A stretch of 13,605 nt of DNA from an uncultured archaeon (GCA_902384455.1 CABMCB010000028.1:1-13605), one strand, 5' to 3'. Shown: positions 1,632 to 13,605, counted from the stretch's first letter. Program-made: numbers and translations. The notes: generated by a model from the sequence alone, not told the origin.

Positions 1632-1706
1632 TGGTTGCGGGGGGAGGGTTCGAACCTCCATACCGGGGTTCAAAGCCCCGTGGCCTACCAATTAGCCGAC
1701 CCCGCA
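1632..1706 (-). tRNA. tRNA-Gln (anticodon UUG), 75 nt, CCA encoded
   Basis: TGCGGGG TC GGCT AATTGGTA GGCC A CGGGG CTTTGAA CCCCG GTAT GGAGG TTCGAAC CCTCC CCCCGCA A CCA forms a complete cloverleaf with a U1-A72 pair, as in bacterial tRNA-Gln. Confidence 0.96.
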
Positions 1707-2423: not shown

Positions 2424-3926
2424 CTTTAAACTATCGACATTCTCAAGGAGGGCCTCTTTGTCGATGAGGCTGACCCTCATGGTAAGTAGTTGTCGGACAT
2501 CTTCGTCTGACAGGTGTTCCAGCCCAGTACCGTTCTCGTTCATGTAGTTGGCCAAGGCCCCCTTCCGCTTGACGTGGGCCAGGACGTTCTCCTCAACCGT
2601 GTCCTCGGCGTAGAACTTGTGGATGCACACCGACTTGAAAGTCGAGTCCATGCGCTTGATGCGGGACCTAATCTGGTGCTCCAAGCTGGGGTTATATACC
2701 GAGTTGATTTCAATGAGGTGACGAGCCTCAGGCCAGTTCTTACCACGAGCCCCAGCCATCGTGATTCCAAGGCAGTCAAGCTTCCCTTCCTTGAAGGCGT
2801 CCGAATGCCGGTCGCGTGTGTCCTTGTTCTTGCCGGTATAAAACCCAACCTTCTTCCCGGCGTTCTTTAGAATCTTGGCCACCGCAAGCAGAGGGTCCAG
2901 GTAGGTTGAGTAGAAGATGAAAGGCTCATTGAAAGATTGGACCAATTCCAGGATAGCCTCACCCTTGGCCGAAATCTTCTCGGGGTCTTCCTCCTCAGCC
3001 CACCTACGCATCTTACCATCACAGATACGAAGCAGGTTGTAGAGCAAGAGCGACCCCTTAATCTTCCGCTTCTCAAACAGCTCCACCTGTTCGATGTACT
3101 CTTTCTTCTGCCCGGCCTTGAGGTGAACGGGGATGGTGTGAACAACCTCTTCAGGCATCTGGATTTCAACGTCGGAGTAAGTGCGACGGAAGTAGTACTT
3201 GGAGAGTTTGGTCTTGAGGTCCCGGATAGACTGGAGAGACTTGGCTCCCTTGATGACAAGGTCGTATTTGAGGGTATGATATCTTGTCCGGTAGTATCTC
3301 TTCTCCGTCTCACAGTAGGTCATGATGTAGTCTTCGTAGTTTCCGAAGAATCCATGTTCCAGGAGTTCGCCCATGGAGTAGGCGTCCTGAAGTCCATTTT
3401 CAATGCTGGTGGCGTTCAAAACCACCACTCGATTAGCCTTGTCTACGAGTTCACGGGCAGCACCAAACGTTTTCGATTCTACGTTCTTGATGTAGCTGGC
3501 CTCGTCAATGATGATATTCTGGAAACCCACCGTCCGCAGGTAGCTGATGCGGCTTAACAGGGTACTGTAGCCGAGTACAAGAGCATGGTTCTTCACATGG
3601 AGACATTTACCGTCCCGGTCAGAGGTCCAGAAGATAACCGGCTTTAAGGGAGTGAATTTTTTAAAGGCACGGAACCAGTCTTCCTGCATGCTGTTCGAGC
3701 AGAGGACCATGGTCTTGTTGAGGGGCAGTTCCCCAAGGTCGGACAGGTAGTTGAGGAGGGCTACCGACTGGACAGTCTTGCCAAGACCAGTATCGTCCCC
3801 GATGATAATGCGGGGATGGAGGTAAGCGGCAATAACCCCGGCCTTTTGGAAGGCACGGAGTTCCCCTTTAAATGAGGGTATAGTCAGCTCCGGATTCTTA
3901 ATGGAGCGGATTTGGGTAAGGTCCAT
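2415..3926 (-). CDS. SNF2-family (SF2) helicase/ATPase, divergent, 503 aa
   Basis: Q motif LRAFQKAGV, Walker A DDTGLGKT, Walker B IIDEAS, motif III region LNATSIEN, FRRT, C-lobe AGARGKNW...YNPSLEHQIRSRIKRM and EDTVEE. Confidence 0.9.
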   Translation of the reverse strand: MDLTQIRSIKNPELTIPSFKGELRAFQKAGVIAAYLHPRIIIGDDTGLGKTVQSVALLNYLSDLGELPLNKTMVLCSNSMQEDWFRAFKKFTPLKPVIFWTSDRDGKCLHVKNHALVLGYSTLLSRISYLRTVGFQNIIIDEASYIKNVESKTFGAARELVDKANRVVVLNATSIENGLQDAYSMGELLEHGFFGNYEDYIMTYCETEKRYYRTRYHTLKYDLVIKGAKSLQSIRDLKTKLSKYYFRRTYSDVEIQMPEEVVHTIPVHLKAGQKKEYIEQVELFEKRKIKGSLLLYNLLRICDGKMRRWAEEEDPEKISAKGEAILELVQSFNEPFIFYSTYLDPLLAVAKILKNAGKKVGFYTGKNKDTRDRHSDAFKEGKLDCLGITMAGARGKNWPEARHLIEINSVYNPSLEHQIRSRIKRMDSTFKSVCIHKFYAEDTVEENVLAHVKRKGALANYMNENGTGLEHLSDEDVRQLLTMRVSLIDKEALLENVDSLKEN

Positions 3927-3963
3927 CGTCCACCTAAGTTGTCACAATAATCCGTAAATTACT

Positions 3964-3993
3964 ATTATAACCCTGAGATTCCGTGAAAGTCAA
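3964..3993 (-). promoter_or_regulatory. Sigma70-type promoter for the helicase/replication module
   Basis: TTGACT (3988-3993)-18 nt-TATAAT (3964-3969) in the intergenic gap upstream of the ATG at 3926. Confidence 0.75.
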
Positions 3994-3996
3994 CCC

Positions 3997-5142
3997 TTAG
4001 GAGTTGTACTGGAGCTGGGTCGAGAGGTCGAGGGAAGCAGCCGTAGGTACCAGGAAGTTCGTCAGCGTGATATACAGAGCGGGAGCCGTAATCTCGTAGG
4101 TTGCCCCTTGGATAAGGTTGAGGGACACAAACCCAGAAACATCCGTCTTGGCAACAATGTCTTCCTTGGTTGCCAGCATGCCGGTACCTGGAGTGAAGGG
4201 GAAGTTCGAAACCAGCTTTGCCCGAAGAATCTCTCCAACCACGGGAACCCCGGTAGCGTCGACCATGTAACAGTAGCAAGTGCAGACGCTCGGGATGTTG
4301 GACACTGGCTGGAAAGAAGCCCCTGTGATGTTGACAGTCTGGTTACCCGTAACGACCAAAGTATAGGGTTGAGTACCAAAGGTGTAGAACGGTTTGTAAA
4401 ACAAAACCTGAAAGGTTTCAGGAATGAGGAAGGTTCCAGGAAGTCCCACGACGAACTGACCGTTTGTGTCCGTCCGACCCACAGCAACAGTAATGGCTCC
4501 TGTGCTGTTTTTGATGGTTACGAAAACATCCGGAATAGGAAGACTGGAACCGTCCAGGATATTAAAGGTCACCATGCTCGAACCTACGGCGGGTTGAACC
4601 GCCGCAAGAATAGAATCCAGCTTGGCATTGATAGTAACCATGTACGCATCCAGACTGGATTGCGTAGCCATGTTGGCTTCGATGTTTTCAACATGTCCGT
4701 CAACTTCCACCAAGAGAGTTTGGGAGGCGATGTCCGAAGAGTCGATTGGAATGGCGGGGTTGACGAGAATCTTGGAAGCAACAGCCTGAGCGATAGCCAG
4801 TGTGTTTACGTTGGCTTCGATGTCTGAGAAGAGAATTTCATCAACAGCGTTACCAGGAAAGGAGGGGTTCGGGTTAGTGTAGTACGCAATGTAGGTGTTG
4901 GTGGCTGTATCCCCGCCTTGGCTATTAAACGAAACCCGATAGAGGCCTGGTTGGTTAACTGCATCTACTTCGGCAAGCGCTACTGGGGTGGGGGTGGCAG
5001 TAAATCCGTTCGTTCCGTTCCAATAAGCCAGGTCAGACTTACGCTGGACCAGGACAACAGGAGATTGTCCAATAACGCCACCCGTGGCGTCAATGATGAG
5101 CAGGTCGAGAGGAATGCTTGTGCCGAGAGGTACAACGTTCAC
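3997..5142 (-). CDS. Putative virion structural protein with carboxypeptidase-regulatory/prealbumin-like beta-sandwich domains, 381 aa
   Basis: GTG start with AAGGA RBS. Repeated pattern VTFNILDGSSLPIPDVFVTIKN...GRTDTNGQFVVGL and YMVDATGVPVVGE...AKTDVSGFVSLNL..GATYEI, with a central amphipathic helix (LDAYMVTINAKLDSILAAV). The structural role is inferred. Confidence 0.6.
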   Translation of the reverse strand: MNVVPLGTSIPLDLLIIDATGGVIGQSPVVLVQRKSDLAYWNGTNGFTATPTPVALAEVDAVNQPGLYRVSFNSQGGDTATNTYIAYYTNPNPSFPGNAVDEILFSDIEANVNTLAIAQAVASKILVNPAIPIDSSDIASQTLLVEVDGHVENIEANMATQSSLDAYMVTINAKLDSILAAVQPAVGSSMVTFNILDGSSLPIPDVFVTIKNSTGAITVAVGRTDTNGQFVVGLPGTFLIPETFQVLFYKPFYTFGTQPYTLVVTGNQTVNITGASFQPVSNIPSVCTCYCYMVDATGVPVVGEILRAKLVSNFPFTPGTGMLATKEDIVAKTDVSGFVSLNLIQGATYEITAPALYITLTNFLVPTAASLDLSTQLQYNS

Positions 5143-5167
5143 GCTTAAATCCTTTTAATTGGCTATT

Positions 5168-5183
5168 AAAGCCCAAGATTTAA
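5168..5183 (-). promoter_or_regulatory. Intergenic motif TTAAATCTTGGGCTTT (copy 1), possible phage-specific promoter/operator
   Basis: 15/16 identical to 6321-6336. Both copies sit just upstream of an RBS of a late-type gene. Confidence 0.45.
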
Positions 5184-5189
5184 GGGAAC

Positions 5190-5699
5190 TTACTTCTCCG
5201 GCCACCCTTCAGGAATAGCAGGTTTTGGGGGTTCTTTTGTAAGCTGGTCATAGAGCTTATTCACGTCCATGGTGGCTTCGAGGTGTGAGACATCCTCGGC
5301 AATACCCGTAACCTGAATATCGTGGGCCTTCCCAGCGATACGGTCACACAGAGCTTCTACCACAGGCGGAGTGAACTTACGAGCCGCAAAGTATGTCCAC
5401 GCGAAGATGAAGGCTGCCAGAATCATCATCCCGAAGGTGATGTATCCGAGTACGGCAGAAGCAGCCAGTTTGATGGTTGCCAGTTTGAGGAGGAGATTCA
5501 TGGACTTGATAAGAATCCAGGTCATAATTCCGGCGAACACCCCAGCAACCGAGAAGATGTCGACGAACATCATGAGGAGCCGGTAACCCAGTACGGCGTA
5601 CCACGGGTCACGTCCAGCTACTTTTTCCCATCGGCTGTATTCAGCCTGTTTCTCGTTGTTCACTGCTCGGATGGATGTTGCCATTTGAACCCTCGTCAT
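5190..5699 (-). CDS. Membrane protein, putative holin, 169 aa
   Basis: Long hydrophobic segments (AVLGYRLLMMFVDIFSVAGVFAGIMTWILI; LAASAVLGYITFGMMILAAFIFAWTYFAA) and a charged C-terminus. ATGA overlap with the endolysin. The holin call rests on context. Confidence 0.55.
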   Translation of the reverse strand: MTRVQMATSIRAVNNEKQAEYSRWEKVAGRDPWYAVLGYRLLMMFVDIFSVAGVFAGIMTWILIKSMNLLLKLATIKLAASAVLGYITFGMMILAAFIFAWTYFAARKFTPPVVEALCDRIAGKAHDIQVTGIAEDVSHLEATMDVNKLYDQLTKEPPKPAIPEGWPEK

Positions 5700-6307
5700 G
5701 CGTAGGCCTCGTCGATGGTCTTTGTTCCAAAAACCACGTTACGGAAGAGGTCCATGTCCCAGGCAGACCCTGGGCAGTCTTTGTGTACCGGCTGCTTCAA
5801 GAGCACGAACGTCTCGCGGTGTCCGATGATTTGTAAGTTGGTGCGGAGGCGGTCATACCAGACCTTCCGCATGTACTGGCAGGCGAGAGCTGCCATTTCG
5901 AATTTCTCTTTAGACGGTTTGACCTTTTGGAAGTTACCGATGATGCAGAGGCCAATCCCGTTTGTGTTGAACCCTGCCGCATGAATGCCCCTCTTGTAGA
6001 GGGTGTGTCCCATCATGAAGTTGAGCTTTCCGTTTGCCTCTTCAATCCCGTAGTTGTAGCCAATGTCATCCCAGGGAGCTTCAACAACCTTCCCTGCGGC
6101 TTGAGCCTCTTTCGCTTCCTCTTCCGTGATGCTGTTCCCGTCCACGCGCCACGACATGTGGTATTTCCGAATAGCATCCCAGTTTACTGTCTTACCATCC
6201 TCAGTAAGGCTGTGGTGTACGACCACGTACTTCTTCTTGGCCAGTTCTGGATTTTTGAAATCCAGAGAACTCAGTTGTTCGTAGAGGTTCGTAATGAAAG
6301 TAGCCAT
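5696..6307 (-). CDS. N-acetylmuramoyl-L-alanine amidase (Amidase_2, T7-lysozyme/PGRP-like) endolysin, about 203 aa
   Basis: Zn-ligand motifs VVVHHS, WDDIGYNY, GIHAAGFNTNGIGLCIIGNF, IIGHRE and KDCPG. The start is probably the ATG at 6307 (GAGGA RBS at 6313-6317), not 6391, which overlaps the upstream gene. Confidence 0.92.
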   Translation of the reverse strand: MATFITNLYEQLSSLDFKNPELAKKKYVVVHHSLTEDGKTVNWDAIRKYHMSWRVDGNSITEEEAKEAQAAGKVVEAPWDDIGYNYGIEEANGKLNFMMGHTLYKRGIHAAGFNTNGIGLCIIGNFQKVKPSKEKFEMAALACQYMRKVWYDRLRTNLQIIGHRETFVLLKQPVHKDCPGSAWDMDLFRNVVFGTKTIDEAYA

Positions 6308-6320
6308 CGTTATCCTCGTA

Positions 6321-6336
6321 AAATCCCAAGATTTAA
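6321..6336 (-). promoter_or_regulatory. Intergenic motif TTAAATCTTGGGATTT (copy 2)
   Basis: Near-identical to 5168-5183. It overlaps the stop codon of the upstream gene and precedes the endolysin RBS. Confidence 0.45.
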
Positions 6337-6761
6337 TGCAAGTTGCCCGAGTAGCTTTGGAGTGCTTTGATAACCTCATCAGGAGCGACAAAAGCGTTGG
6401 GATTGTAAATGTCCCCCTCCCACATATCGAACTGGTTTGGACGAAGGTATCCCCTGTTCTTCAGAAGATTGATGTTTTCTTCATGTCCAAAGATGAGAGG
6501 GTCCGAGGTCCCCCAAAGAACAATAGCCTTGACTCCGATGGACCAGCAGAAGTGCTGAAGGAAACTGTCAACACAAATGACGTAGTCGGCACTCTTCAGA
6601 AGCTTCTCCAGTTCGTCAAAAGGCTCTTTGACCACCTCTACGAGCTCGTACTTCGGTCGAAGGGCATCAAGAAGCAGGTCCCAATACGGGTAGTCCTTGG
6701 CGGAGCGGTTTCCATTCCTCAACGGTTTTACCCCCCGGGAATAGACAATTAAAGGCTTCAT
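6333..6761 (-). CDS. GT9 (heptosyltransferase-like, GT-B) C-terminal domain protein, 142 aa
   Basis: AKDYPYWDLLLDAL...DELEKLLKSADYVICVDSFLQHFCWSIGVKAIVLWGTSDPLIFG matches the GT9 C-terminal KxW/YP...DSxxxH...LF/WGxT/S.P pattern. ATGA overlap with the upstream gene. Confidence 0.8.
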   Translation of the reverse strand: MKPLIVYSRGVKPLRNGNRSAKDYPYWDLLLDALRPKYELVEVVKEPFDELEKLLKSADYVICVDSFLQHFCWSIGVKAIVLWGTSDPLIFGHEENINLLKNRGYLRPNQFDMWEGDIYNPNAFVAPDEVIKALQSYSGNLH

Positions 6762-7792
6762 TCAGCCACCCCCGTCATTTTGGCGTATGCGTGTTTCATT
6801 TCAGTGGTCCACTTGTGGTCAATGCACCACCTAAAGATGTTGAATCTGTCGAGGTTACCAAGTTGGTTGTAGGCGTCCGCGATACTGCGGAGTTCCAGGC
6901 CTTCGCCCTTAAAGAGTTCGGGATAGCAAACATACAAGATAATCTTGTAGTCCTTGTACTTCTCTTTAATCTTTGGAAGCAGGCTCTTAAAGACGATGGT
7001 GTCCCCCATACCACAGTCCAGGACAAAACACTTCTCTTTCTTCGGTACTCCCACCCCATACTCCCGAAGGCGCTCTCGGAAGAGCTTTTCATCATTGTCC
7101 CAATCCTGTTGTTTCCCAGCGGCTCGAATGCCTCCCACCCCCGACCTGAAATGATAAGTCACTGCCGCACTATCCACAATGAGTCGGTATTTCTTCTTAA
7201 AGATACCATAGGAGTGTAGGGTTTCCTCACGGTGGGCTACGGGGCTAAGGTCCCTTTCAAAGCTGTTGATTCCCTTGCGATAAAGGTAGGAGCTGTAGAG
7301 GTGTTCTACTTCCTTGACACCCTTCCAGCGAAACCACTGACAGTTTGCACGGTCGATGCTGTTAAGGGTATTGGGAAGAACTTCCATCCTGGGAGCGTCT
7401 GGGGGAATGACCAACCCAGCCACAGCGCCTACCGGATGCTTTCCAGGTTTATTTACGAAGTGTGATTCTAAAATCTGAAGGACGTTGGGCTCAGCAATCT
7501 CGTCATCGTCAATTCTCCACACCAAGTCCAAGGCTTTTTCCTGGATTAGCTGGTGACCGACGTGCTGCCCTCGTCTCTGGCCGAACTCAACCCCCCATTC
7601 AATGCCCTTGGTGTTGAGTAGGGTGAAGATGTACTGGTATGTCTGAATCTCCCGAAGGTCTTTAGGGTTGGAAGAATCGTCGTAGATGATGAGCCTATCC
7701 GGCTTTCGAGTCTGCGTGATAACAGACATCAAAGTCATGGGGAGAAGCTCGTAGCGGTCTTTGGTAGGAATGCCTACGGTGATATGGGCCAT
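6758..7792 (-). CDS. GT2 (GT-A) glycosyltransferase with a C-terminal GT9-like N-domain, 344 aa
   Basis: ITVGIPTKDR, IIYDDSS, DxD motif WRIDDDE and HREET. The C-terminal ~90 aa (6758-7035) VLDCGMGDTIVFKSLLPKIKEKYKDYKIILYVCYPELF resembles the GT9 N-terminal (G/S)xGD motif. TAATG overlap with the upstream gene. Confidence 0.82.
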   Translation of the reverse strand: MAHITVGIPTKDRYELLPMTLMSVITQTRKPDRLIIYDDSSNPKDLREIQTYQYIFTLLNTKGIEWGVEFGQRRGQHVGHQLIQEKALDLVWRIDDDEIAEPNVLQILESHFVNKPGKHPVGAVAGLVIPPDAPRMEVLPNTLNSIDRANCQWFRWKGVKEVEHLYSSYLYRKGINSFERDLSPVAHREETLHSYGIFKKKYRLIVDSAAVTYHFRSGVGGIRAAGKQQDWDNDEKLFRERLREYGVGVPKKEKCFVLDCGMGDTIVFKSLLPKIKEKYKDYKIILYVCYPELFKGEGLELRSIADAYNQLGNLDRFNIFRWCIDHKWTTEMKHAYAKMTGVAE

Positions 7793-9822
7793 TAGACCTT
7801 CTCGTATTTGAGGTTTCTTCCAAACACGTCTTCGCCATTGGCGATTCTTTGGGCGATGACTACGGGATTCTTGAATTCTGGCTTGTTGTACTCTTGGTGA
7901 GCTGTATCTTCAATCTTCTTGATGATACGAGTTACGTCCCCGAAGTAGGACAGGTGCTTACCTGCGTTGGGAATTTGAGGGGCGTCGTGACTGTACCGAG
8001 CACCACAGGGAGTCAGTTCCTTGAGCTTCTTGTAAGTAAGAATCTTTCCCTCGAACCACATGTCCTTGGCTCGGGTGTGCTCATCGTAGTAGTACAAGTC
8101 CATTTCAAGCGACCGGATTCCATCCTCGGGCTTGAAGCTCTTGATAGCTTCTGGTGTAGGGATTTCATCACAGTCCGAAACAACAATGATGTCGTTGTCC
8201 TGGCAGGTGACCAAGCCGTTCATGATGAAGTTGCGTTGGTACCGTTCCAGAGCCCACGCATCCGAGGTATCGGGAAACTTCTCCACCACTAAGTACGTAA
8301 TCTTGTCCAAGTACTTAGAAAAGCGATTCAGGTTGTTGTGGAAGGTAAGGTCTTTGGGCTTGTTGGCATGGGTAAACAAAGCTTCGACAATGACGAAACG
8401 GTCCACTGTGCTGTAGAGCTCCGTCAAACGGCGTTCGAGAATATCAAGCTCGTTGTTGAACGGGAAGCAGTCGAAGATGCAAGGAGGGCGAAGGCTCTCA
8501 GACTGTTTGATGTCCTTTTTCTCGCAGTACCAGATTGTCGTGGCGTCCCCGCAGTAGACGTTCTCCAGGCATTTGTAGACGGCCTTGTTGACGCCCTCCC
8601 AGGCTCCCAAGTCGTGTCCACAGAAGATACCGCCATCCGCCAGGACCGAACCCCAAGCTTTGATGTCCTGGGTGAGTTCTTCTTCCGTGTGCCCAGCGTC
8701 AATGAAAATCATGTCCGCTTTGAGCCCCTTCTCCTTGAAGAAGTCGGCAGCGTTCTTGGAGGACATGCGGATAGGGATTATCTTTCCTTGAGATACAAGG
8801 TCGATGTTCCCCTGGAAGAACTCGTAAATGGCGTGGTCACCATCACGCATCTTGGCAGAAGCATGGTTGGTGTTCTGTTCCGCAACACTCCCATTCCAGG
8901 TGTCGACACAATATACGACACCCCCCTCCATCGAGTTGTCCCCGAGGGCACGAGAGGACTTTCCGTGCCAAGACCCTACTTCGATAATAACCTTGCGCTT
9001 CTTGGCTTCGGTAGCCAGCCACTTAAGTTCGATTTCACTCATGAAGCCGTCCAGCAGTTTGGCTCTTTCAATATCCACAACTTCAGTGAGGTGGGTGGCA
9101 GGAACTCTCACTTCAGGGGAGGTGGCTTTTTTCGCCCCTGAATTGTATCGAGTACGAAGAATCTCATTGTTCTTCTTGAGAAGCTCTTCTCCGCCCGTCC
9201 AGTTCTTGAAGGTGACATTCCCTTTGTGGAAGATGGGGAACTGCCCAACCATCTGCTTGGAGTTGTCATTGGCATAAGTGTTGGAAGGACACACCTGGAT
9301 AATCTTAAACCCAGCGTCCTGAATCTTGCAGCAGAAATCAGTGTCTTCACCGTAGCCTGGGCTGAAGATTTCATCCAAGATTCCGAAGCGGTCGAACATT
9401 TCCCGCTTGATGCAAACACAAAACCCAATGAGAAAGTCTCGGTCAGCTTCGGGGCAGTGAGTCAGCATAGGGCCCGTCATACCTACCGTAGAGTCAGAGA
9501 AAGGCTCCAGGAGGATATCAACCCACTTATTAAACGGAGGGTAGATTACGGTGTCATTGTTGAGGAGGATGATATAGTCACCCGCAGCTCTTACGATTCC
9601 TGCGTTTGTGGACTTGGTATAGCCCATACCTTCATCAAACCATACGAGATTGAATGGTTCCCCTAGGCTTTCAACATACTCCTTAGTGTTGTCTTTACAC
9701 CCGTTGGCCACCACGATAATCTCGGTTTGGGTAAGGTCCGTATTTGCCTTGAGAGACTCTAGGCAAGGCTTTAGTAGGTCCTCACAGTGGTTGTAGGTCG
9801 GAATGACAACGGAGACTTTCAT
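7792..9822 (-). CDS. Tri-domain fusion: GT2 glycosyltransferase + class I SAM methyltransferase (Methyltransf_24-like) + GT17 (MGAT3-like beta-1,4-GlcNAc transferase), 676 aa
   Basis: GT2 (~9140-9822): VSVVIPTYN, LLNNDT, GYGEDTDFC. MTase (~8510-9075): IEVGSWHGKSS, CVDTW, MIFIDAGH, GGIFCGHD. GT17 (~7792-8480): IFDCFPFNNELDILERRLTELY...FVIVEA...ERYQRN...SDCDEIP...HLSYFG...KIEDTAHQE. Confidence 0.88.
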   Translation of the reverse strand: MKVSVVIPTYNHCEDLLKPCLESLKANTDLTQTEIIVVANGCKDNTKEYVESLGEPFNLVWFDEGMGYTKSTNAGIVRAAGDYIILLNNDTVIYPPFNKWVDILLEPFSDSTVGMTGPMLTHCPEADRDFLIGFCVCIKREMFDRFGILDEIFSPGYGEDTDFCCKIQDAGFKIIQVCPSNTYANDNSKQMVGQFPIFHKGNVTFKNWTGGEELLKKNNEILRTRYNSGAKKATSPEVRVPATHLTEVVDIERAKLLDGFMSEIELKWLATEAKKRKVIIEVGSWHGKSSRALGDNSMEGGVVYCVDTWNGSVAEQNTNHASAKMRDGDHAIYEFFQGNIDLVSQGKIIPIRMSSKNAADFFKEKGLKADMIFIDAGHTEEELTQDIKAWGSVLADGGIFCGHDLGAWEGVNKAVYKCLENVYCGDATTIWYCEKKDIKQSESLRPPCIFDCFPFNNELDILERRLTELYSTVDRFVIVEALFTHANKPKDLTFHNNLNRFSKYLDKITYLVVEKFPDTSDAWALERYQRNFIMNGLVTCQDNDIIVVSDCDEIPTPEAIKSFKPEDGIRSLEMDLYYYDEHTRAKDMWFEGKILTYKKLKELTPCGARYSHDAPQIPNAGKHLSYFGDVTRIIKKIEDTAHQEYNKPEFKNPVVIAQRIANGEDVFGRNLKYEKV

Positions 9823-9901
9823 GTAAGTTCCTTTGAATTGACAATTTCAAGCAGGAGTGTTATACACTCGGTATTTGTCTGGTGTAAAATACAAAATAAA
9901 A

Positions 9902-10183
9902 TTAGGATGTAGCTGAAACACCAACAAAAAGGCCATTTTGAGAATTATCTTCAAAAGACGCTTTGTTTTCCGTAATCCAGTCACTCAACCAAGAAGAGCA
10001 CTCGTTAGTTGTACTGAAAGTTGAAATAGGAACAGTCACTGTATACCCAAGGTAGCTTCCTCCAATATCAACAGAAATAGAGATATAATAGTTCGTTCCG
10101 TCATCCGCACAACTGGTAATGGTTGCCGTGTATTTTACTTTTTTCTTCGATGCCACGGTACTCTCCGTTTTAGTTGGTGCCAT
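9902..10183 (-). CDS. Hypothetical protein, 93 aa
   Basis: ATG with GGAG RBS, 15 nt after the fibre gene stop. Ser/Thr-rich and visibly AT-richer than the left arm. No motif recognised. Confidence 0.7.
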   Translation of the reverse strand: MAPTKTESTVASKKKVKYTATITSCADDGTNYYISISVDIGGSYLGYTVTVPISTFSTTNECSSWLSDWITENKASFEDNSQNGLFVGVSATS

Positions 10184-10198
10184 TAAAGCACTCCGGTA

Positions 10199-13100
10199 TT
10201 AGGTTTCCCTTGTTTTAACTGTTACGTAGAGACGACCAACCGCGTTAATGTGTGTAGTGGTATCTGTTTCGTTAGTGAACTGAATTCCCCAGGCCTGATT
10301 TGCTGTAAGGGCGAGAGACAGACCTGTGACACTTCCAGTAAAGAGTGCGTTGGTTCCAAGATTGTTATTAGTTTGAACACTTGCCAGAGGGGTGATGTTG
10401 ATGCGTTGTGTTGACACCAAGGTGCGTCCGCCAACTTGGTTTGTGTAGATGTCGATACGGACGGAAGCGGAAGCACCGACAGGTGTCGAGTTAATAGCTG
10501 CCTGGCAGCAAGTTAAGCTGATGTCTGTAATGTTACAGTTGGCGAGAGCAACATAAGGGTCGAGAGCTCCGTTCTCGATGTTATTCGAGGGGTCTGTTGT
10601 TGGGTAAGGTTGAGTAGACCCCGCAGCTTTATTCATTAAGCCAGTAGTGCTATTAGCTTGGCTACTGAGAGAGAAGTGCCAATACCCAACACTTTGACCC
10701 ACACCGGAGTATCCAGAATACCCAGAGGTACCAGCACCGCTGTATCCAGAATATCCAGACGGGCCAGAATATCCCGAGTACCCCGAGATACCAGAGCCAG
10801 AGTACCCACTGAATCCGGAAGGTCCCGAGTAGCCAGAATATCCAGACGGGCCAGAATATCCAGAGTACCCACTGAAACCAGAAGGTCCAGAATACCCAGA
10901 GTATCCGGAGAGGCCGCTGTATCCAGAGTACCCAGACTGGCCGGTATAGCCGCTGTATCCGGACTGACCTGTGTATCCGGACTGACCTGTGTATCCGGAG
11001 TATCCAGATGGGCCAGAATATCCGGAGTATCCAGACGGACCCGAGTAGCCAGAATACCCAGACTGTCCTGTGTAACCAGAGTACCCGGAATCACCGGAAT
11101 AGCCGGAGTATCCGGAAAATCCTGTGTATCCAGAGTATCCGCTTGCAGAGGGGTAGAGGTCCGGATACATGTAAGAGAAGTCCGAAGAGTTGATGAGAGT
11201 GAACTGGGCCGGAGAAGATGTACGAATGTTTTGTCCGTGGATAATCCCTGTTCCAGTAGAGAATGTAGACCCTTCTGCATTGACAAGGGACACATTGGAC
11301 ATGGTGCAGTAGATGTTTCCAGGGGAAGGCTGGGCGAACCCTCCAATAACTTCCAGGGAGTTTGTCTGAACAAAATCCGTATTAAGGACATGGCTGAGAT
11401 TAAACGACCCCAAGGTATTCATTGTCGAGTAAGCTGAGGTGTTAATCACTCGACAGTTGTAGAGAATACCTTCAAAATCGGCCATGATGGTATTCGAACC
11501 GTCAACGGGAGTAGAGCCCGTTGTTTCGAAAACGCTGTCCGAGTAGTAATTTCCGTTCCTGCTGGAAGTGAATCCACCGTCGAATCGGAAGTTTGAATTC
11601 AGTACTGTAATCTCAGACGACTCTGTCCACAGGTTACATCCGTAAGTTGTTACAGTAGCTGTATCAACCGAGCACCTGTCAATCAAACCGCGAGTAGCAA
11701 AGCCCACGACCTTTTGGAAGACATTACCAATCCCGTTCTGTCCCGATGTGAGCCACGTAAATCTGCAGCTTTGAAAGACACCGCCCGCGAAGTCTTGAAC
11801 CATGATTTCGTTATTAGTGGCGGTTGAGTCAAGAATGCAGTCCGTGAATTGAGCTGCTGCATAGCCGAGACAGGATTGAGTGCTTTCAATCACGCAGTTA
11901 TCAAAACGGACTTTGGCACTCCAGATGTATTTACGAGCACCAGCACCGTCAATAAAATAGTCTTGAATGACAGGGCCATTTGCGTACACCGCACAGTCGT
12001 AAAGAGTAGACCCTGTATACTTGATAGTCAGGTTACTGATTTGATTTTCTGCATTTACGGAATCGTTGATGTTGAGGACGTTTGTTACCGAACTTGTAAT
12101 AACGGTAGTATCGGGGTCTTGACCAATGAGGTCGATGTAAGCTCCGTTAGTCAGTGCCGTCAGGTCTAAGTTTTCATTATAGATGCCGGGAAGAATGAAG
12201 GCTGCTCCGTGTTGAGTAGCCGACAAAGAAAGCGTGTCCAGATAGGTAATGGCAGCGCCGATGGTGAGGTAAGGTCCTCCCACGTTTCCATCATTGCCTG
12301 TTTGGGAAACAACAACAAAGAACCCATTGAGTCCCGTACCGGAGTAACCGCTGAATCCGCTGTACCCAGAGTATCCAGACTTTCCAGTATAACCACTGTA
12401 CCCAGAAGGCCCGGAGTATCCAGAATATCCACTGTAACCAGACTGGCCGGTATAACCACTGTAACCTGACCATCCCGTATAGCCGCTGTAGCCGGACTGA
12501 CCTGTGTAGCCACTGTAGCCGGACTGACCTGTGTAACCACTGTATCCAGAGTATCCAGATGGCCCGGAGTATCCAGAATACCCGGAAGGTCCAGAGTATC
12601 CAGAATAACCAGACTTCCCTGTATACCCACTGTAACCTGACTCACCTGTGTAGCCACTGTAACCGCTGTGACCCGATGTTCCAGTATATCCGGAGTAACC
12701 AGAAACACCAGAACCACTGTAACCCGAGTAGCCCGATGCTCCCGACCCACCCGCGATAGCTGCGACCACGAAAGAAACAGAACGTGGAGTAAAGGTGATA
12801 CCGTCAACCGTGTAGCTCTTCATGAAAAGTTCGAGGTAATCACCCGAATTGACTGAAGCTACACCGACAGAAGCTACGGTAGTGAGAATTCCTGGAACAG
12901 ACTGAGTATCGACTTCAAAGCCATCAAACGAACTTCCGTTGTTATAGACTTTCAATTCAAGCAAATCAGCCGTCAGTGAATCTGTAGAGTATACAACGGT
13001 AGCAATGATGGCATAAACGCCTGTAGAGTTACAAGTCAGTTTTCCGTTTACGGCATCTTGGGTCCAACCGTTTGTTTCTCCGAGCTGCCAAGGAAGAGTT

Positions 13101-13605
13101 GAGCCGAGCTGGTAGTAGGTACCATGCGTTGTAAACGCAACGGTATTCGTTGTGTTGTCGTCAAAGTACAATTCAGAGTAAGCGGCAGCACCTGTAGTTC
13201 CTGCAGGACCTTGAGGGCCACTGTATCCGGAATACCCAGAGAAACCACTCTCGCCTTGGTAACCGCTATATCCAGACGTACCAGAGCCAGAGTAGCCGCT
13301 GTATCCGGAAACACCCGAGCCAGAATAGCCGGAGTACCCAGACTGACCTGTGTAACCACTGTATCCAGAATGGCCAGAGTACCCGGAATATCCGAATCCT
13401 GAGTAGCCGCTGTATCCGGGAACACCCGAGCCGGAGTAACCACTATACCCGGAGGGTCCAGAGTAACCGGAGTATCCAGAAGGACCAGAATAGCCGGAGT
13501 AACCCGATTAACCCGAATACCCGGACAGGCCAAGTCCAGAATATCCAGAATCACACCAATAGCAGCAGTATCCGGAAACGAAAGAACCAGAGTAGCAGGA
13601 GTAAC
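10199..13605 (-). CDS. Large collagen-like (Gly-Tyr-Ser repeat) fibre/receptor-binding protein with C1q/BclA-like and pectin-lyase-like beta-helix domains; 5'-partial
   Basis: The frame of the 990-aa ORF stays open upstream of the TTG at 13171 to 13507 (at least 1102 aa). The SGY pattern continues in frame past a lone TAA (13508-13510) to the window end. C1q/BclA-like domain ~12755-13190 (GKLTCNSTGVYAIIATV...VNSGDYLELFM); beta-helix ~11150-12325 (VSQTGND...PYLTIGAAI...ILPGIYNENL...IDLIGQDPDTTVI); C-terminal beta-rich domain ~10199-10690. Confidence 0.85.
10700..11140 (-). repeat. Coding (Gly-Tyr-Ser)n triplet tract 3
   Basis: SGYSGYTGFSGYSGYSGDSGY...SGYSGYSGVG. Includes an exact 18-bp tandem duplication (ggactgacctgtgtatcc) near 10961-10996. 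Confidence 0.95.
12335..12740 (-). repeat. Coding (Gly-Tyr-Ser)n triplet tract 2
   Basis: SGASGYSGYSGSGVSGYSGYTGTSGH...SGFSGYSGTG. Near-exact 27-bp tandem units at about 12488-12541. Confidence 0.95.
13190..13605 (-). repeat. Coding (Gly-Tyr-Ser)n triplet tract 1 (truncated by the window end)
   Basis: Manual translation: ...SGYSGYSGPSGYSGYSGPSGYSGYSGSGVPGYSGYSGFGYSGYSGHSGYSGYTGQSGY...GPQGPAGTTGAA, ending in classical collagen triplets GPQ-GPA. Confidence 0.92.

What the first reader, a model, noticed from the sequence alone, without database searches (positions are those of the whole stretch)
6333..13605. Candidate virion-fibre glycosylation system: Ser/Tyr-rich collagen-like fibre plus a dedicated glycosyltransferase/methyltransferase operon
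Seen in sequence: a fibre-like gene with three long (G-Y-S/T)n tracts, giving a hydroxyl residue at nearly every X and Y position. It is followed on the same strand by three translationally coupled genes carrying four GT modules (GT2, GT17, GT2, split GT9) and a SAM methyltransferase, and then directly by the lysis cassette. Established: GT2, GT9 and GT17 build glycans; some phages glycosylate virion proteins with GTs encoded in the structural region; bacterial collagen-like BclA and serine-rich repeat adhesins are O-glycosylated by adjacent GT clusters. Inference: the operon builds a methylated oligosaccharide on the Ser/Thr (or Tyr) of the GYS tracts. This could stabilise a Pro-poor triple helix or shield the virion. 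I know of no characterised GYS-collagen/GT17/MTase system.
Basis: partly seen in the sequence, partly recalled or inferred. Interest (0 to 1): 0.85.

Follow-up and report, generated by a model that had tools for sequence, protein, structure and literature searches.

The report
Phage serine-collagen fibre with sugar-transferase operon
A large uncultured tailed phage encodes a collagen-like tail fibre made of Gly-Tyr-Ser triplets directly followed by a conserved set of sugar-adding and methylating enzymes, a pairing that recurs in many unrelated phage fibres and suggests, without chemical proof, that these phages sugar-coat their own fibres.

Summary
On the minus strand lie: a collagen-like fibre gene with three Gly-X-Ser/Thr tracts (120 triplets; X = Tyr 61%, Y = Ser 79% + Thr 12.5%), a 93-aa ORF, a GT2–Methyltransf_24–GT17 fusion, a GT2 fused to the N-half of a GT9, a separate GT9 C-half, then an amidase and a 3-TM protein.

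Corrections:
- The fibre runs off the contig end and carries an in-frame TAA 100 nt from that end.
- Its N-terminus lies on another contig, beside a contractile-tail module.

- Of 22 IMG/VR loci with the GT cluster, 14 hold a Gly-X-Ser ORF. The other 8 break at most 2.6 kb upstream of the cluster.
- In an independent DNA scan for (Gly-Tyr-Ser/Thr)4, 17 of 39 Ser-type loci carry the cluster against 0 of 66 Thr-type loci.
- The adjacent fibres fall into 12 groups with unrelated globular domains.
- The enzymes have no membrane segments.

Best reading (about 0.6): cytoplasmic O-glycosylation of the Y-position serines, with methylation of the glycan. No chemistry has been seen.

I found no description of this module in print. 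This scan noted the same kind of system earlier on other DNA (three notes).

The parts
10199..13605 (-). Collagen-like tail-fibre gene, 5' part cut by the contig end. Three Gly-X-Ser/Thr tracts alternate with globular domains. Stop TAA at 10199-10201.
   Evidence: Open frame and composition. Pfam Collagen E 1.3e-32. PHROG tail fiber families, e.g. phrog_5073 E 7.6e-43.
13508..13510 (-). In-frame TAA inside tract 1, about 100 nt from the contig end. It is probably an assembly or variant artefact of a CAA (Gln) codon in a G-Q-S triplet.
   Evidence: position; the equivalent stretch at the start of contig C68 reads ...SGQSGYSG.... No start codon lies between this stop and 13171.
13184..13504 (-). 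G-X-S/T tract 1
12332..12751 (-). G-X-S/T tract 2
10730..11140 (-). G-X-S/T tract 3
9902..10183 (-). 93-aa ORF of unknown function between the fibre and the GT genes. Its only relative found is in L001, where it follows the GT cluster.
   Evidence: No Pfam or PHROG family. phmmer hit in L001 4538-4807, E 7.7e-25.
7792..9822 (-). 676-aa three-domain enzyme: GT2 (aa 1 to about 230; nt 9133-9822), Methyltransf_24 (aa 280-404; nt 8611-8985), GT17 (aa 431-668; nt 7819-8532). No membrane segment.
   Evidence: Pfam. Invariant motifs in 30 relatives: N88/D90, E159-D160, G283-W285-G287-S289, D375, D550-D552-E553. Hydropathy.
6758..7792 (-). 344-aa protein: GT2 domain (aa 1 to about 250) fused to the N-terminal half of a GT9-like GT-B enzyme (aa about 251-344; nt 6761-7042).
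   Evidence: Pfam GT2 E 2.2e-7. Invariant R-x-D95-D96-D97 and G261-x-G263-D264 in 21 relatives. 537 cluster representatives at E <= 1e-30.
6333..6761 (-). 142-aa GT9 C-terminal (donor-binding) half, a separate gene whose ATG overlaps the preceding stop (ATGA).
   Evidence: Pfam PF01075, 27.3 bits (cut-off 22). 20 of 24 relatives match PF01075. Profile hits WaaC 2h1f at E 1.3e-4. Predicted to bind the GT9N half.
5696..6391 (-). Amidase_2 endolysin candidate. The likely true start is the ATG at 6307.
   Evidence: Pfam Amidase_2 E 1.7e-11. phrog_822 amidase. Translation.
5190..5699 (-). 169-aa protein with hydrophobic segments (holin-like, not verified). Relatives follow the GT cluster in L002 and L005.
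   Evidence: Hydropathy segments at about aa 35-72 and 76-107. phmmer hits L002 E 2e-23 and L005 E 3.5e-7.

Best explanation
The window is the end of the tail-fibre module of a large contractile-tailed phage. I read the three GT genes as a virion-fibre glycosylation system.

Proposed mechanism:
- The enzymes are soluble and act in the infected cell's cytoplasm.
- They attach sugars to the serines (and threonines) at the Y position of the Gly-X-Ser collagen-like tracts of the phage's own fibre proteins.
- The conserved core, GT2-GT9N plus GT9C, acts first. GT9N and GT9C together make one split GT-B enzyme.
- The GT2-MTase-GT17 protein then extends the glycan and O-methylates a sugar.

Shown here:
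- The genes, domains and conserved motifs.
- Absence of membrane segments.
- The operon-like order.
- The tight, Ser-type-specific linkage of cluster and tract across divergent phages.
- A model-supported contact of the two GT9 halves.

Inferred:
- The acceptor.
- The order of action.
- The sugars.
- The benefit. Candidates are helix stabilisation in a Pro-poor collagen, protease or antibody shielding, and adhesion.
For: 1. Context. All genes lie on one strand with 1-nt and 4-nt start/stop overlaps. They come after tail sheath, baseplate and fibre genes on the adjoining contig and before the amidase.

2. Cluster to tract. Of the 114 loci fetched with the fusion protein, 22 have the GT2b/GT9N unit.
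- 14 of these 22 hold a Ser-type G-X-Y ORF of at least 8 triplets.
- The other 8 have a contig end 20-2562 nt upstream of the cluster.
- 0 of the other 92 loci hold a Ser-type tract.

3. Tract to cluster. Of the 120 loci from a DNA scan for (G-Y-S/T)4, 17 of 39 Ser-type loci hold cluster homologues. So do 0 of 66 Thr-type, 0 of 5 mixed and 0 of 10 unclassified loci. Fisher p = 3e-9, not corrected for relatedness.
- With at least 1 kb held downstream of the fibre: 15 of 22 Ser-type against 0 of 29 Thr-type.
- The cluster usually starts 4-516 nt downstream on the same strand.
- Whole-contig searches add 5 of 19 Ser-type contigs and 0 of 24 Thr-type contigs, two of the latter complete.

4. The link is to the tract and not to one fibre gene. 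The non-collagen parts of 39 Ser-type ORFs from 32 loci fall into 12 homology groups. Only L001 matches the window's globular domains.

5. GTs are not a general neighbour of collagen-like fibres. Among 150 of 242 neighbour ORFs of Thr-type fibres, no GT family had 2 or more members.

6. The enzymes are soluble: no 19-residue window above KD 1.6 in any of the three.

7. The family is large and phage-borne. It has 537 cluster representatives at E <= 1e-30. None of 34 loci from 185,579 species genomes had the fused architecture.

8. Split GT9. 136 of the best 150 representatives end within 30 residues after GT9N, and 14 have GT9C fused.
- Complex model: score 0.71, best of 3 controls 0.00. That mark was reached by 58 of 80 solved complexes and 2 of 110 mismatched pairs.
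- The three runs agree in at least 97% of contacts, and the partner's pLDDT is at least 87.
- The interface includes the invariant G-x-G-D loop 261-264 and His70.
- This pass may reflect likeness to solved single-chain GT-B enzymes.

9. Precedents.
- The soluble chlorovirus enzyme A064R carries a GT domain and a methyltransferase domain and acts on its capsid protein. GT17 genes are listed among chlorovirus capsid-glycan enzymes (PMC5408694, passages).
- Heptosyltransferases of the TibC type hyperglycosylate autotransporters (PMC4358343, abstract).
Against: - No glycan, mass or expression datum exists for any member. Linkage is circumstantial.
- Some Ser-type fibres lie on contigs with no GT2b-GT9N homologue: L163 (69 kb), L210 (43.6 kb, with 5.7 kb held downstream), L211 (223 kb), L213 (70 kb) and L226 (33 kb). 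These records are estimated 20-54% complete. In L147 the cluster is 43 kb from the tract that was found.
- No fibre-GT fusion protein was found: 0 of 150 representatives carry a G-X-Y run.
- The nearest solved relatives of the GT9 C-half by sequence are LPS heptosyltransferases WaaC and WaaF. TibC did not appear even at E <= 10.
- The counts come from related phages and overlapping samples, so they are not independent events.
- The published reading of GTs in myophage tail-fibre regions is modification of the host O-chain (PMC7029224, passages).
Confidence: 0.6

Rival explanations
1. The enzymes remodel the host's envelope glycans during infection: LPS core or O-antigen, capsule or teichoic acid. 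This would block superinfection or stop progeny from sticking to debris. They lie next to fibre genes only because the host-recognition region collects such accessory genes.
For: - GT9 is the LPS heptosyltransferase family, and WaaC and WaaF are the nearest solved relatives of the C-half.
- The N-terminal GT2 gives a weak match to GtrB-like O-antigen conversion (phrog_841, E 5e-8, aa 1-90).
- This is the published interpretation for GTs in the tail-fibre hypervariable region of pelagimyophages (PMC7029224, passages).
- Fold neighbours of the GT2b domain include TarP, a wall-teichoic-acid GlcNAc transferase.
Against: - It does not explain why the cluster tracks Ser-type tracts (17 of 39) and never Thr-type tracts (0 of 66).
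- It does not explain why the cluster stays next to fibres with 12 unrelated sets of globular domains.
- None of the three enzymes has a membrane segment. Among the 7 window proteins scanned, the only one with hydrophobic segments is the holin-like ORF. No flippase- or GtrC-like partner is present.
- No cellular genome among the 34 loci found had this architecture.
Confidence: 0.15
2. The enzymes glycosylate another phage target, such as capsid, tail tube or sheath subunits or the phage DNA, or they build a free glycan. The G-X-S fibres are merely co-inherited neighbours.
For: - In mycobacteriophages the glycans sit on capsid and tail-tube C-termini (statement in PMC12619734 citing Freeman 2023).
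- Phage GTs that hypermodify DNA are common (same passage).
- Some cluster-bearing contigs show no tract in the sequence held: 8 of 22.
Against: - Tract-type specificity and adjacency are as above. The cluster usually starts within 4-516 nt of the fibre stop.
- There is no base-modification gene in the operon.
- Short GYS tracts also occur in two further proteins of this phage. That fits a tract-directed enzyme better than a capsid-directed one.
Confidence: 0.1
3. The linkage is historical synteny in one phage lineage and has no functional coupling.
For: - All loci come from metagenomes and may belong to one broad clade of large myoviruses.
- GT2b identities to the window are 39-64%.
- Counts are not phylogenetically corrected.
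Against: - The order is rearranged yet the linkage is kept. The fibre lies downstream of the cluster in L017 and L199 and on the opposite strand in L021.
- Other neighbours are not kept. The amidase, orf381 and SNF2 have no relatives in any of the 22 loci. TM169 has relatives in 2 and orf93 in 1.
- The enzymes keep invariant catalytic motifs over this divergence.
Confidence: 0.08

Closest known systems
Mycobacteriophage virion glycosylation (Freeman et al. 2023; paper not held. I saw only the summary sentence and reference in PMC12619734.)
   Same: Phage-encoded glycosyltransferases modify the phage's own structural proteins.
   Different: - There the glycans are reported on C-termini of capsid and tail-tube subunits. 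Here the candidate acceptor is a collagen-like Gly-X-Ser tract in fibres.
- The enzyme set here (GT2-MTase-GT17, GT2-GT9N, GT9C) has not, to my knowledge, been described there. That statement is from recall and was not checked.
BclA of the Bacillus exosporium, and BclA3 with SgtA of Clostridioides difficile (BclA: search listing and abstracts; SgtA-BclA3: named in earlier scan note e1-6087385 and recalled, not checked)
   Same: - A trimeric collagen-like surface filament with a hydroxyl residue at the Y position of G-X-Y.
- It is O-glycosylated with an oligosaccharide capped by a methylated sugar. Anthrose is 2-O-methylated (abstract of PMC6222408).
   Different: - Those are bacterial spore proteins with mostly G-P-T triplets (recalled). 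Here the protein is a phage fibre with G-Tyr-Ser triplets.
- In this data set Thr-type viral tracts never carry the cluster.
Chlorovirus PBCV-1 A064R and the capsid (Vp54) glycosylation enzymes (PMC5408694, passages and table legend)
   Same: - A soluble, virus-encoded multi-domain enzyme joins glycosyltransferase and methyltransferase domains and acts on a virion protein in the cytoplasm.
- GT17-family genes are listed among chlorovirus capsid-glycan enzymes.
   Different: - That is a eukaryotic virus with N-linked glycans on the major capsid protein.
- Domain families and order differ.
- There is no collagen-like acceptor and no split GT9.
Bacterial autotransporter heptosyltransferases TibC/AAH (PMC4358343, abstract)
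   Same: Enzymes related to LPS heptosyltransferases that hyperglycosylate many sites of a repetitive surface protein in the cytoplasm.
   Different: - TibC was not matched by the GT9C profile even at E <= 10.
- Those enzymes are single-chain dodecamers that act on beta-helical adhesins. Here the GT-B is split, and its N-half is fused to a GT2.
Mimivirus L230 collagen modification (PMC9614988, passages)
   Same: A virus-encoded enzyme glycosylates virus-encoded collagen-like proteins.
   Different: L230 hydroxylates Lys and adds glucose to hydroxylysine. Here there is no hydroxylase, Lys is rare in the tracts (2 of 120 X positions), and the candidate acceptor is Ser.
Split GT-B glycosyltransferases such as Alg13/Alg14 (recalled, no call)
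   Same: The two Rossmann-like halves of one GT-B enzyme are made as separate polypeptides that must associate.
   Different: The family is different (GT1-type UDP-GlcNAc transferase). Here the N-half is unusually short (about 90 residues) and is fused to a GT2 domain.

Membership tests
Collagen triple-helix repeat (PF01391) | Uninterrupted Gly-X-Y periodicity matching the family model | tested here: met
   E 1.3e-32, 111.8 bits against a cut-off of 27.2, in 5 stretches. 120 triplets in runs of at least 4.
Collagen triple-helix repeat (PF01391) | Formation of a trimeric triple helix, usually helped by Pro/Hyp or charge pairs | not testable with these tools
   Pro fills only 13 of 120 X positions, and Y is Ser or Thr in 110 of 120. 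No trimer model was run.
GT2 (PF00535) | Match to the family model above the curated cut-off and an acidic DXD-type motif | tested here: met
   Fusion N-terminus: 74.3 bits (cut-off 23.3). Second GT2: 31.4 bits. Invariant N88/D90 and E159-D160. Invariant D95-D96-D97. The AF2 model has a GT-A fold whose neighbours are ppGalNAc-T, TarP and RmlT.
GT17 (PF04724; the characterised member is GnT-III) | Match to the family model above the cut-off | tested here: met
   97.6 bits against a cut-off of 26, covering profile positions 59-299 of 348. Invariant D550-x-D552-E553.
GT17 (PF04724; the characterised member is GnT-III) | Transfer of beta-1,4-GlcNAc to a mannose acceptor | not testable with these tools
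Donor and acceptor are unknown.
Methyltransf_24 (PF13578), class I SAM methyltransferase | Family match and a glycine-rich SAM-binding motif | tested here: met
   59.1 bits against a cut-off of 26.3. Invariant G283-W285-G287-S289, D307 and D375. The nearest solved chain is 6g7d, 'Methyltransferase domain protein', E 9.9e-5. That this is a sugar O-methyltransferase is my recollection only.
GT9 (PF01075, heptosyltransferases, GT-B fold) | C-terminal nucleotide-sugar-binding domain matching the family | tested here: met
   27.3 bits against a cut-off of 22. 20 of 24 relatives match. The profile hits WaaC at E 1.3e-4 and WaaF at E 0.018.
GT9 (PF01075, heptosyltransferases, GT-B fold) | N-terminal acceptor domain with the Gly-Asp loop that carries the catalytic base | tested here: inconclusive
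   There is no Pfam hit on aa 251-344. An invariant G-x-G-D is present, and it contacts the C-half in the complex model. That this Asp equals the WaaC catalytic base is recalled, not aligned. The N-half is only about 90 residues.
GT9 (PF01075, heptosyltransferases, GT-B fold) | Both domains on one polypeptide | tested here: not met
   The enzyme is split between two genes here, and in 136 of the 150 best representatives. It is fused in 14 and in L001.
Gtr-type O-antigen conversion (GtrA flippase, GtrB, GtrC) | Membrane-bound GtrB with C-terminal TM helices plus GtrA and GtrC membrane partners | tested here: not met
   The only match is a weak N-terminal one to phrog_841 (E 5e-8, aa 1-90). The GT proteins have no hydrophobic segment, and no polytopic partner exists among the 7 proteins scanned.
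Phage virion glycosylation systems (working class) | Phage-encoded GTs inside the structural module | tested here: met
   The order is sheath, baseplate, fibres (C68), then fibre, GTs, lysis (window).
Phage virion glycosylation systems (working class) | Glycan demonstrated on a virion protein | not testable with these tools
   No isolate or proteomic data exist. Only one DNA run holds a small share of the stretch.

The most novel reading that the evidence does not exclude
Gly-X-Ser collagen tracts are a portable glycosylation tag of large environmental phages. A phage-specific, obligatorily split GT9-like enzyme, whose N-half is fused to a GT2, recognises the tract and starts Ser-O-glycosylation. 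Variable add-on modules (GT2, methyltransferase, GT17) then build lineage-specific methylated glycans. The result would be mucin-like 'glyco-collagen' fibres, a widespread and so far undescribed class of viral glycoprotein. The short GYS tracts in an NHL-repeat-like (judged by eye) baseplate-region protein and in a vWA-like (judged by eye) protein of this phage would be the same tag.
Probability: 0.45. Interest if true: 0.8.

Novelty: new variant of a known kind. Interest (0 to 1): 0.66.

Why it matters
Protein glycosylation of phage particles has been shown experimentally in very few cases. If this module does what the linkage suggests, hundreds of uncultured large phages coat their host-recognition fibres with self-made sugars: the core enzyme has 537 clusters at 50% identity.

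Consequences if true:
- It would change how fibre-receptor binding, stability and immune or protease resistance of phages are modelled.
- It would give a natural proline-free, serine-glycosylated collagen scaffold.
- It would give a compact enzyme set for glyco-engineering.
- It would assign a first function to bacterial/phage GT17 homologues and to a conserved split GT-B enzyme.

It is directly testable by co-expression in E. coli.

Tried and rejected
- Near-identical DNA in GenBank phages: none. A protein search there gave only single-domain matches of at most 36% identity.
- PDB sequence search with the fused L001 GT2b-GT9 protein: 0 hits.
- Foldseek with the whole 470-aa model was dominated by the GT-A domain, so it says nothing about the GT9 part. 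I ran no further search on a GT9-only model.
- Sequencing runs: no RNA holder is listed. One DNA run holds a 0.07 share of the words. I did not lay it.
- Terminase_6N and Gp23 family searches of the MAG: no match, and the Gp23 control rang nowhere. The phage's class beyond 'contractile tail' is open.
- The promoter/terminator scan of 3900-10400 gave only weak intragenic matches. It shows no clear terminator between fibre and GT genes and no evidence either way.
- A literature search for PDB code 6G7D found nothing relevant. The Freeman 2023 paper is not held.
- Neighbours of Ser-type fibres without the cluster (45 ORFs): no other GT family, mostly upstream structural genes. No alternative enzyme set was seen, but most of these loci are cut just downstream of the fibre.
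- A Rosetta-stone fusion of tract and GT: not found (0 of 150).
- The 5 bacterial MAG loci with 'full-length' tblastn rows (L083, L084, L087, L088, L094) hold separate GT17 and GT2 genes. They lack the fusion, GT2b-GT9N and any tract.
- Supplementary files of papers were closed and may hold gene tables relevant to GTs in tail-fibre regions.

Full report
WHAT IS THERE

The window is one whole 13,605-bp contig (C28) of a 2.41-Mb, 103-contig MAG. All convincing genes lie on the minus strand. In the direction of transcription they are:
- A long fibre frame, 13603 to 10199.
- A 93-aa ORF, 10183-9902.
- A 676-aa protein, 9822-7792.
- A 344-aa protein, 7792-6758.
- A 142-aa protein, 6761-6333.
- An Amidase_2 protein, 6391/6307-5696.
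- A 169-aa protein with hydrophobic segments, 5699-5190.
- A 381-aa ORF without any family, 5142-3997.
- An SNF2-type helicase, 3926-2415.
- tRNA-Gln(TTG), 1706-1632.
- A phrog_1362 protein, 1405-407.

Pfam results:
- The 676-aa protein holds GT2 (E 1.4e-20), Methyltransf_24 (E 9e-16) and GT17 (E 1e-27), in that order.
- The 344-aa protein holds GT2 (E 2.2e-7).
- The 142-aa protein holds the C-terminal half of GT9 (E 2.8e-6, above the curated cut-off).

Gene boundaries overlap by 1 nt and by 4 nt.

THE FIBRE

Translated from 13603, the frame has three Gly-X-Y tracts separated by globular parts of about 145, 395 and 175 residues.
- In 120 triplets, X is Tyr 73 times, Pro 13 and Gln 8. Y is Ser 95 times and Thr 15.
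- Codon usage inside the repeat is varied, so the pattern is held at protein level.
- Pfam Collagen scores E 1.3e-32, and several PHROG tail-fibre families match.

First, the frame runs off the contig. It also contains an in-frame TAA at 13508-13510 with no start codon between it and the TTG at 13171.

Second, contig C68 begins with the matching piece on the same strand. That piece is an ORF starting M-A-G-V-I-Y-I-P-P... and continuing in GYS triplets until the contig end, where the sequence degenerates.
- The stretch equivalent to the window's ...SGYSG*SG... reads ...SGQSGYSG... there. The TAA is therefore most simply a CAA variant or an end-of-contig error.
- C68 continues with fibre-like proteins, a gp6-like baseplate wedge (phrog_6, E 1.3e-44), other baseplate proteins and a tail sheath (phrog_279, E 3.5e-43).
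- Its far end overlaps the start of contig C4 by 127 bp.

The element is thus a contractile-tailed phage of at least 142 kb. The GT genes sit at the very end of its tail-fibre module, in front of the lysis genes.

IS THE PAIRING MORE THAN CHANCE?

I ran it in both directions.

Direction 1: starting from the enzyme.
- The three-domain protein has many full-length relatives. 97 of the 120 listed cover at least 94% of it at 41-75% identity.
- With an alignment of 30 of them I fetched 80 viral and 34 cellular loci.
- The next gene (GT2 plus GT9 N-half) is present in 22 loci, all viral: L001-L021 and L023. The GT9 C-half is present in 19 of those 22.
- 14 of the 22 hold an ORF with at least 8 consecutive G-X-Y triplets whose X/Y residues are mainly Ser with Tyr or Phe.
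- In the other 8 the contig ends 20-2562 nt upstream of the cluster, and no G-X-S run of at least 4 triplets is present in what is held. This is what one expects if assemblies break in the repeat, as this window's contig does. It is not proof.
- None of the remaining 92 loci has a Ser-type tract. Seven have other G-X-Y types.
- The five bacterial MAG loci that looked full-length hold separate GT17 and GT2 genes only.

Direction 2: starting from the repeat.
- A degenerate DNA pattern for four Gly-Tyr-(Ser/Thr-like) triplets found at least 120 stretches in IMG/VR. The scan stopped at its limit.
- Classified by the Y position, 39 are Ser-type, 66 Thr-type, 5 mixed and 10 unclassified.
- Homologues of the window's GT genes occur in 17 of 39 Ser-type loci and in none of the other 81. 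Fisher p = 3e-9, uncorrected for relatedness.
- Where at least 1 kb downstream of the fibre is held, the figures are 15 of 22 against 0 of 29. The cluster typically begins 4-516 nt after the fibre's stop on the same strand.
- Searching whole contigs added 5 of 19 Ser-type records (4 of 12, 1 of 7) and 0 of 24 Thr-type records, two of them complete genomes. 31 records were not held and not searched.
- Thr-type tracts are common, also in giant-virus MAG contigs. Their neighbours show no GT family with two or more members among 150 of 242 ORFs scanned.

IS IT ONE CONSERVED FIBRE GENE OR THE TRACT ITSELF?

After masking the G-X-Y runs, the globular parts of 39 Ser-type ORFs from 32 cluster-bearing loci fall into 12 unconnected homology groups. 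Only L001 matches the window's globular domains.

The other neighbours are not conserved:
- The amidase, orf381 and helicase have no relatives in any of the 22 loci.
- The holin-like ORF has relatives in 2, and orf93 in 1.

The relative order also changes:
- The fibre lies downstream of the cluster in L017 and L199.
- It lies on the opposite strand in L021.

What stays constant is 'Gly-X-Ser tract next to GT2-GT9N/GT9C'. X varies between Tyr, Phe and Ile from locus to locus, while Y is Ser in 79-97% of triplets. If the tract is the substrate, the Y-position Ser is the acceptor and Tyr is not.

COUNTER-EXAMPLES

- Ser-type fibres on contigs of 33-223 kb without the core enzyme: L163, L210, L211, L213 and L226. 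These records are estimated 20-54% complete.
- L210 holds 5.7 kb downstream of the fibre without the cluster.
- In L152 the cluster is 7 kb downstream, and in L147 it is 43 kb from the tract found.
- No protein fuses a tract to the enzyme: 0 of 150.

THE ENZYMES

None of the three has a hydrophobic segment. All domains keep invariant acidic or SAM-binding motifs across relatives of 38-77% identity.

The core unit GT2-GT9N is a large family: 4714 representatives at E <= 0.001 and 537 at E <= 1e-30 in a 1.84-billion-protein library.
- Of the best 150, 136 end within 30 residues after the GT9 N-half, and 14 carry the C-half fused. L001 also carries it fused.
- 90 of the 150 carry further domains that match the profile of the three-domain fusion upstream in the same protein.
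- The split of this GT-B enzyme is therefore the rule and not a frameshift in this window.

Structure and complex models:
- An AF2 model of the fused L001 protein is confident (mean pLDDT 90.5). Its fold neighbours are GT-A enzymes, led by polypeptide GalNAc-transferases and TarP. That ranking is not specific.
- The GT9C profile finds WaaC (E 1.3e-4) and WaaF (E 0.018), but not TibC.
- The complex model of GT9N (aa 245-344) with GT9C scores 0.71 against 0.00 for the best of 3 controls. That mark was reached by 58 of 80 solved complexes and 2 of 110 mismatched pairs.
- The runs agree in at least 97% of contacts, and the partner's pLDDT is at least 87.
- The interface brings the invariant G-x-G-D loop against invariant His70 and residues 89-94.
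- GT-B enzymes are solved as single chains, so this pass may reflect that likeness.
- By sequence, the N-terminal GT2 of the fusion is nearest to solved GT2 enzymes that include GalT1 (5hea) and GmaR (22ao). The MTase domain is nearest to 6g7d. What those proteins do is my recollection only.

HOW IT MOST LIKELY WORKS

Late in infection the fibre and the enzymes are made from one transcription unit. The soluble enzymes then decorate the Ser/Thr-lined surface of the collagen-like segments before or during trimer assembly.

Steps that are inferred:
- The acceptor.
- That the conserved GT2-GT9N/GT9C pair starts the glycan.
- That the GT2-MTase-GT17 protein extends and methylates it.
- The identity of the sugars.
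- The benefit.

Stabilisation of Pro-poor triple helices by glycosylated Thr is known from other collagens (recalled), so it is a reasonable benefit. Shielding or adhesion are equally open.

RIVALS

Host-envelope remodelling is the usual reading for GTs in myophage fibre regions (PMC7029224), and it fits the LPS ancestry of GT9. It does not explain the tract-type specificity or the lack of membrane parts. Another virion or DNA target, or mere synteny, are less likely for the reasons given in their entries.

KNOWN RELATIVES AND NOVELTY

Known analogues:
- Phage virion glycosylation is known from mycobacteriophages (cited in PMC12619734).
- Collagen-like glycoproteins with methyl-capped glycans are known from the Bacillus exosporium.
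- A soluble viral GT-plus-methyltransferase enzyme and viral GT17 genes are known from chloroviruses.
- Viral collagen glycosylation is known from mimivirus L230.
- Heptosyltransferase-type protein hyperglycosylation is known from TibC.

Five full-text searches found no paper that describes a Gly-X-Ser fibre coupled to this enzyme set. One paper speculates in general terms that GTs near tail genes glycosylate tail proteins of archaeal viruses (PMC11706807).

This scan itself has noted the same kind of system on other DNA: e1-6087385, e1-5740953 and e1-5786002. Those are unchecked AI notes and not independent support. My counts were made independently here.

VERDICT

The glycosylation of the fibre is well motivated but unproven. 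I rate it a new variant of a known kind.

Noticed in passing
window 13508-13605, and contigs C68 (L115 1-550) and C4 of the same MAG: The contig breaks inside the GYS repeat. C68 starts with the fibre's N-terminus, and its far end overlaps C4 by 127 bp. The phage therefore spans at least C28 + C68 + C4, about 142 kb. Both repeat-side contig ends carry stop codons and odd residues, typical of assembly ends.
   Followed up: partly
G000 C68 6495-8726 (-) and C4 56107-56865 (-): Two further proteins of the same phage carry short GYS tracts of 7 triplets. One is a 727-aa protein beside the baseplate genes whose repeats look NHL-like by eye. The other is a 253-aa protein with a DxSxS motif that looks vWA-like by eye. 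They may carry the same tag as the fibre.
   Followed up: no
Loci L118-L237 (IMG/VR): Gly-Tyr-Thr collagen-like proteins are more common than the Ser type (66 against 39 of 120 loci). They also occur on giant-virus MAG contigs. They never have this GT cluster, and among the sampled neighbours no GT family occurs in 2 or more of them.
   Followed up: partly
L024, L026, L029, L031, L033, L035: Phage loci that have only a stand-alone GT17 homologue (about 40% identity to aa 446-676) carry Thr/Ala/Pro-type collagen-like ORFs 8-9 kb downstream.
   Followed up: no
window 6336-6761 (-), alignment A3: The GT9 C-half of the window, and of L002, L004 and L005, lacks a segment of about 15 residues (consensus ...QIGxxGExQxVxDFR...) that is present in the other 20 relatives.
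   Followed up: no
whole MAG (G000): Earlier scan notes call this MAG an Altiarchaeota archaeon. Yet these contigs encode a contractile-tailed phage with an Amidase_2 (muramoyl-alanine amidase) lysin. The phage is probably mis-binned or infects a bacterium of the same community. No 24-mer is shared with other contigs except the C4 overlap and one repeat.
   Followed up: partly
window 3997-5142 (-) and 9902-10183 (-): A 381-aa ORF after the lysis genes and the 93-aa ORF between the fibre and the GT genes match no Pfam or PHROG family.
   Followed up: no
window 1632-1706 (-): A tRNA-Gln (anticodon TTG) lies between the helicase region and a phrog_1362 gene.
   Followed up: no
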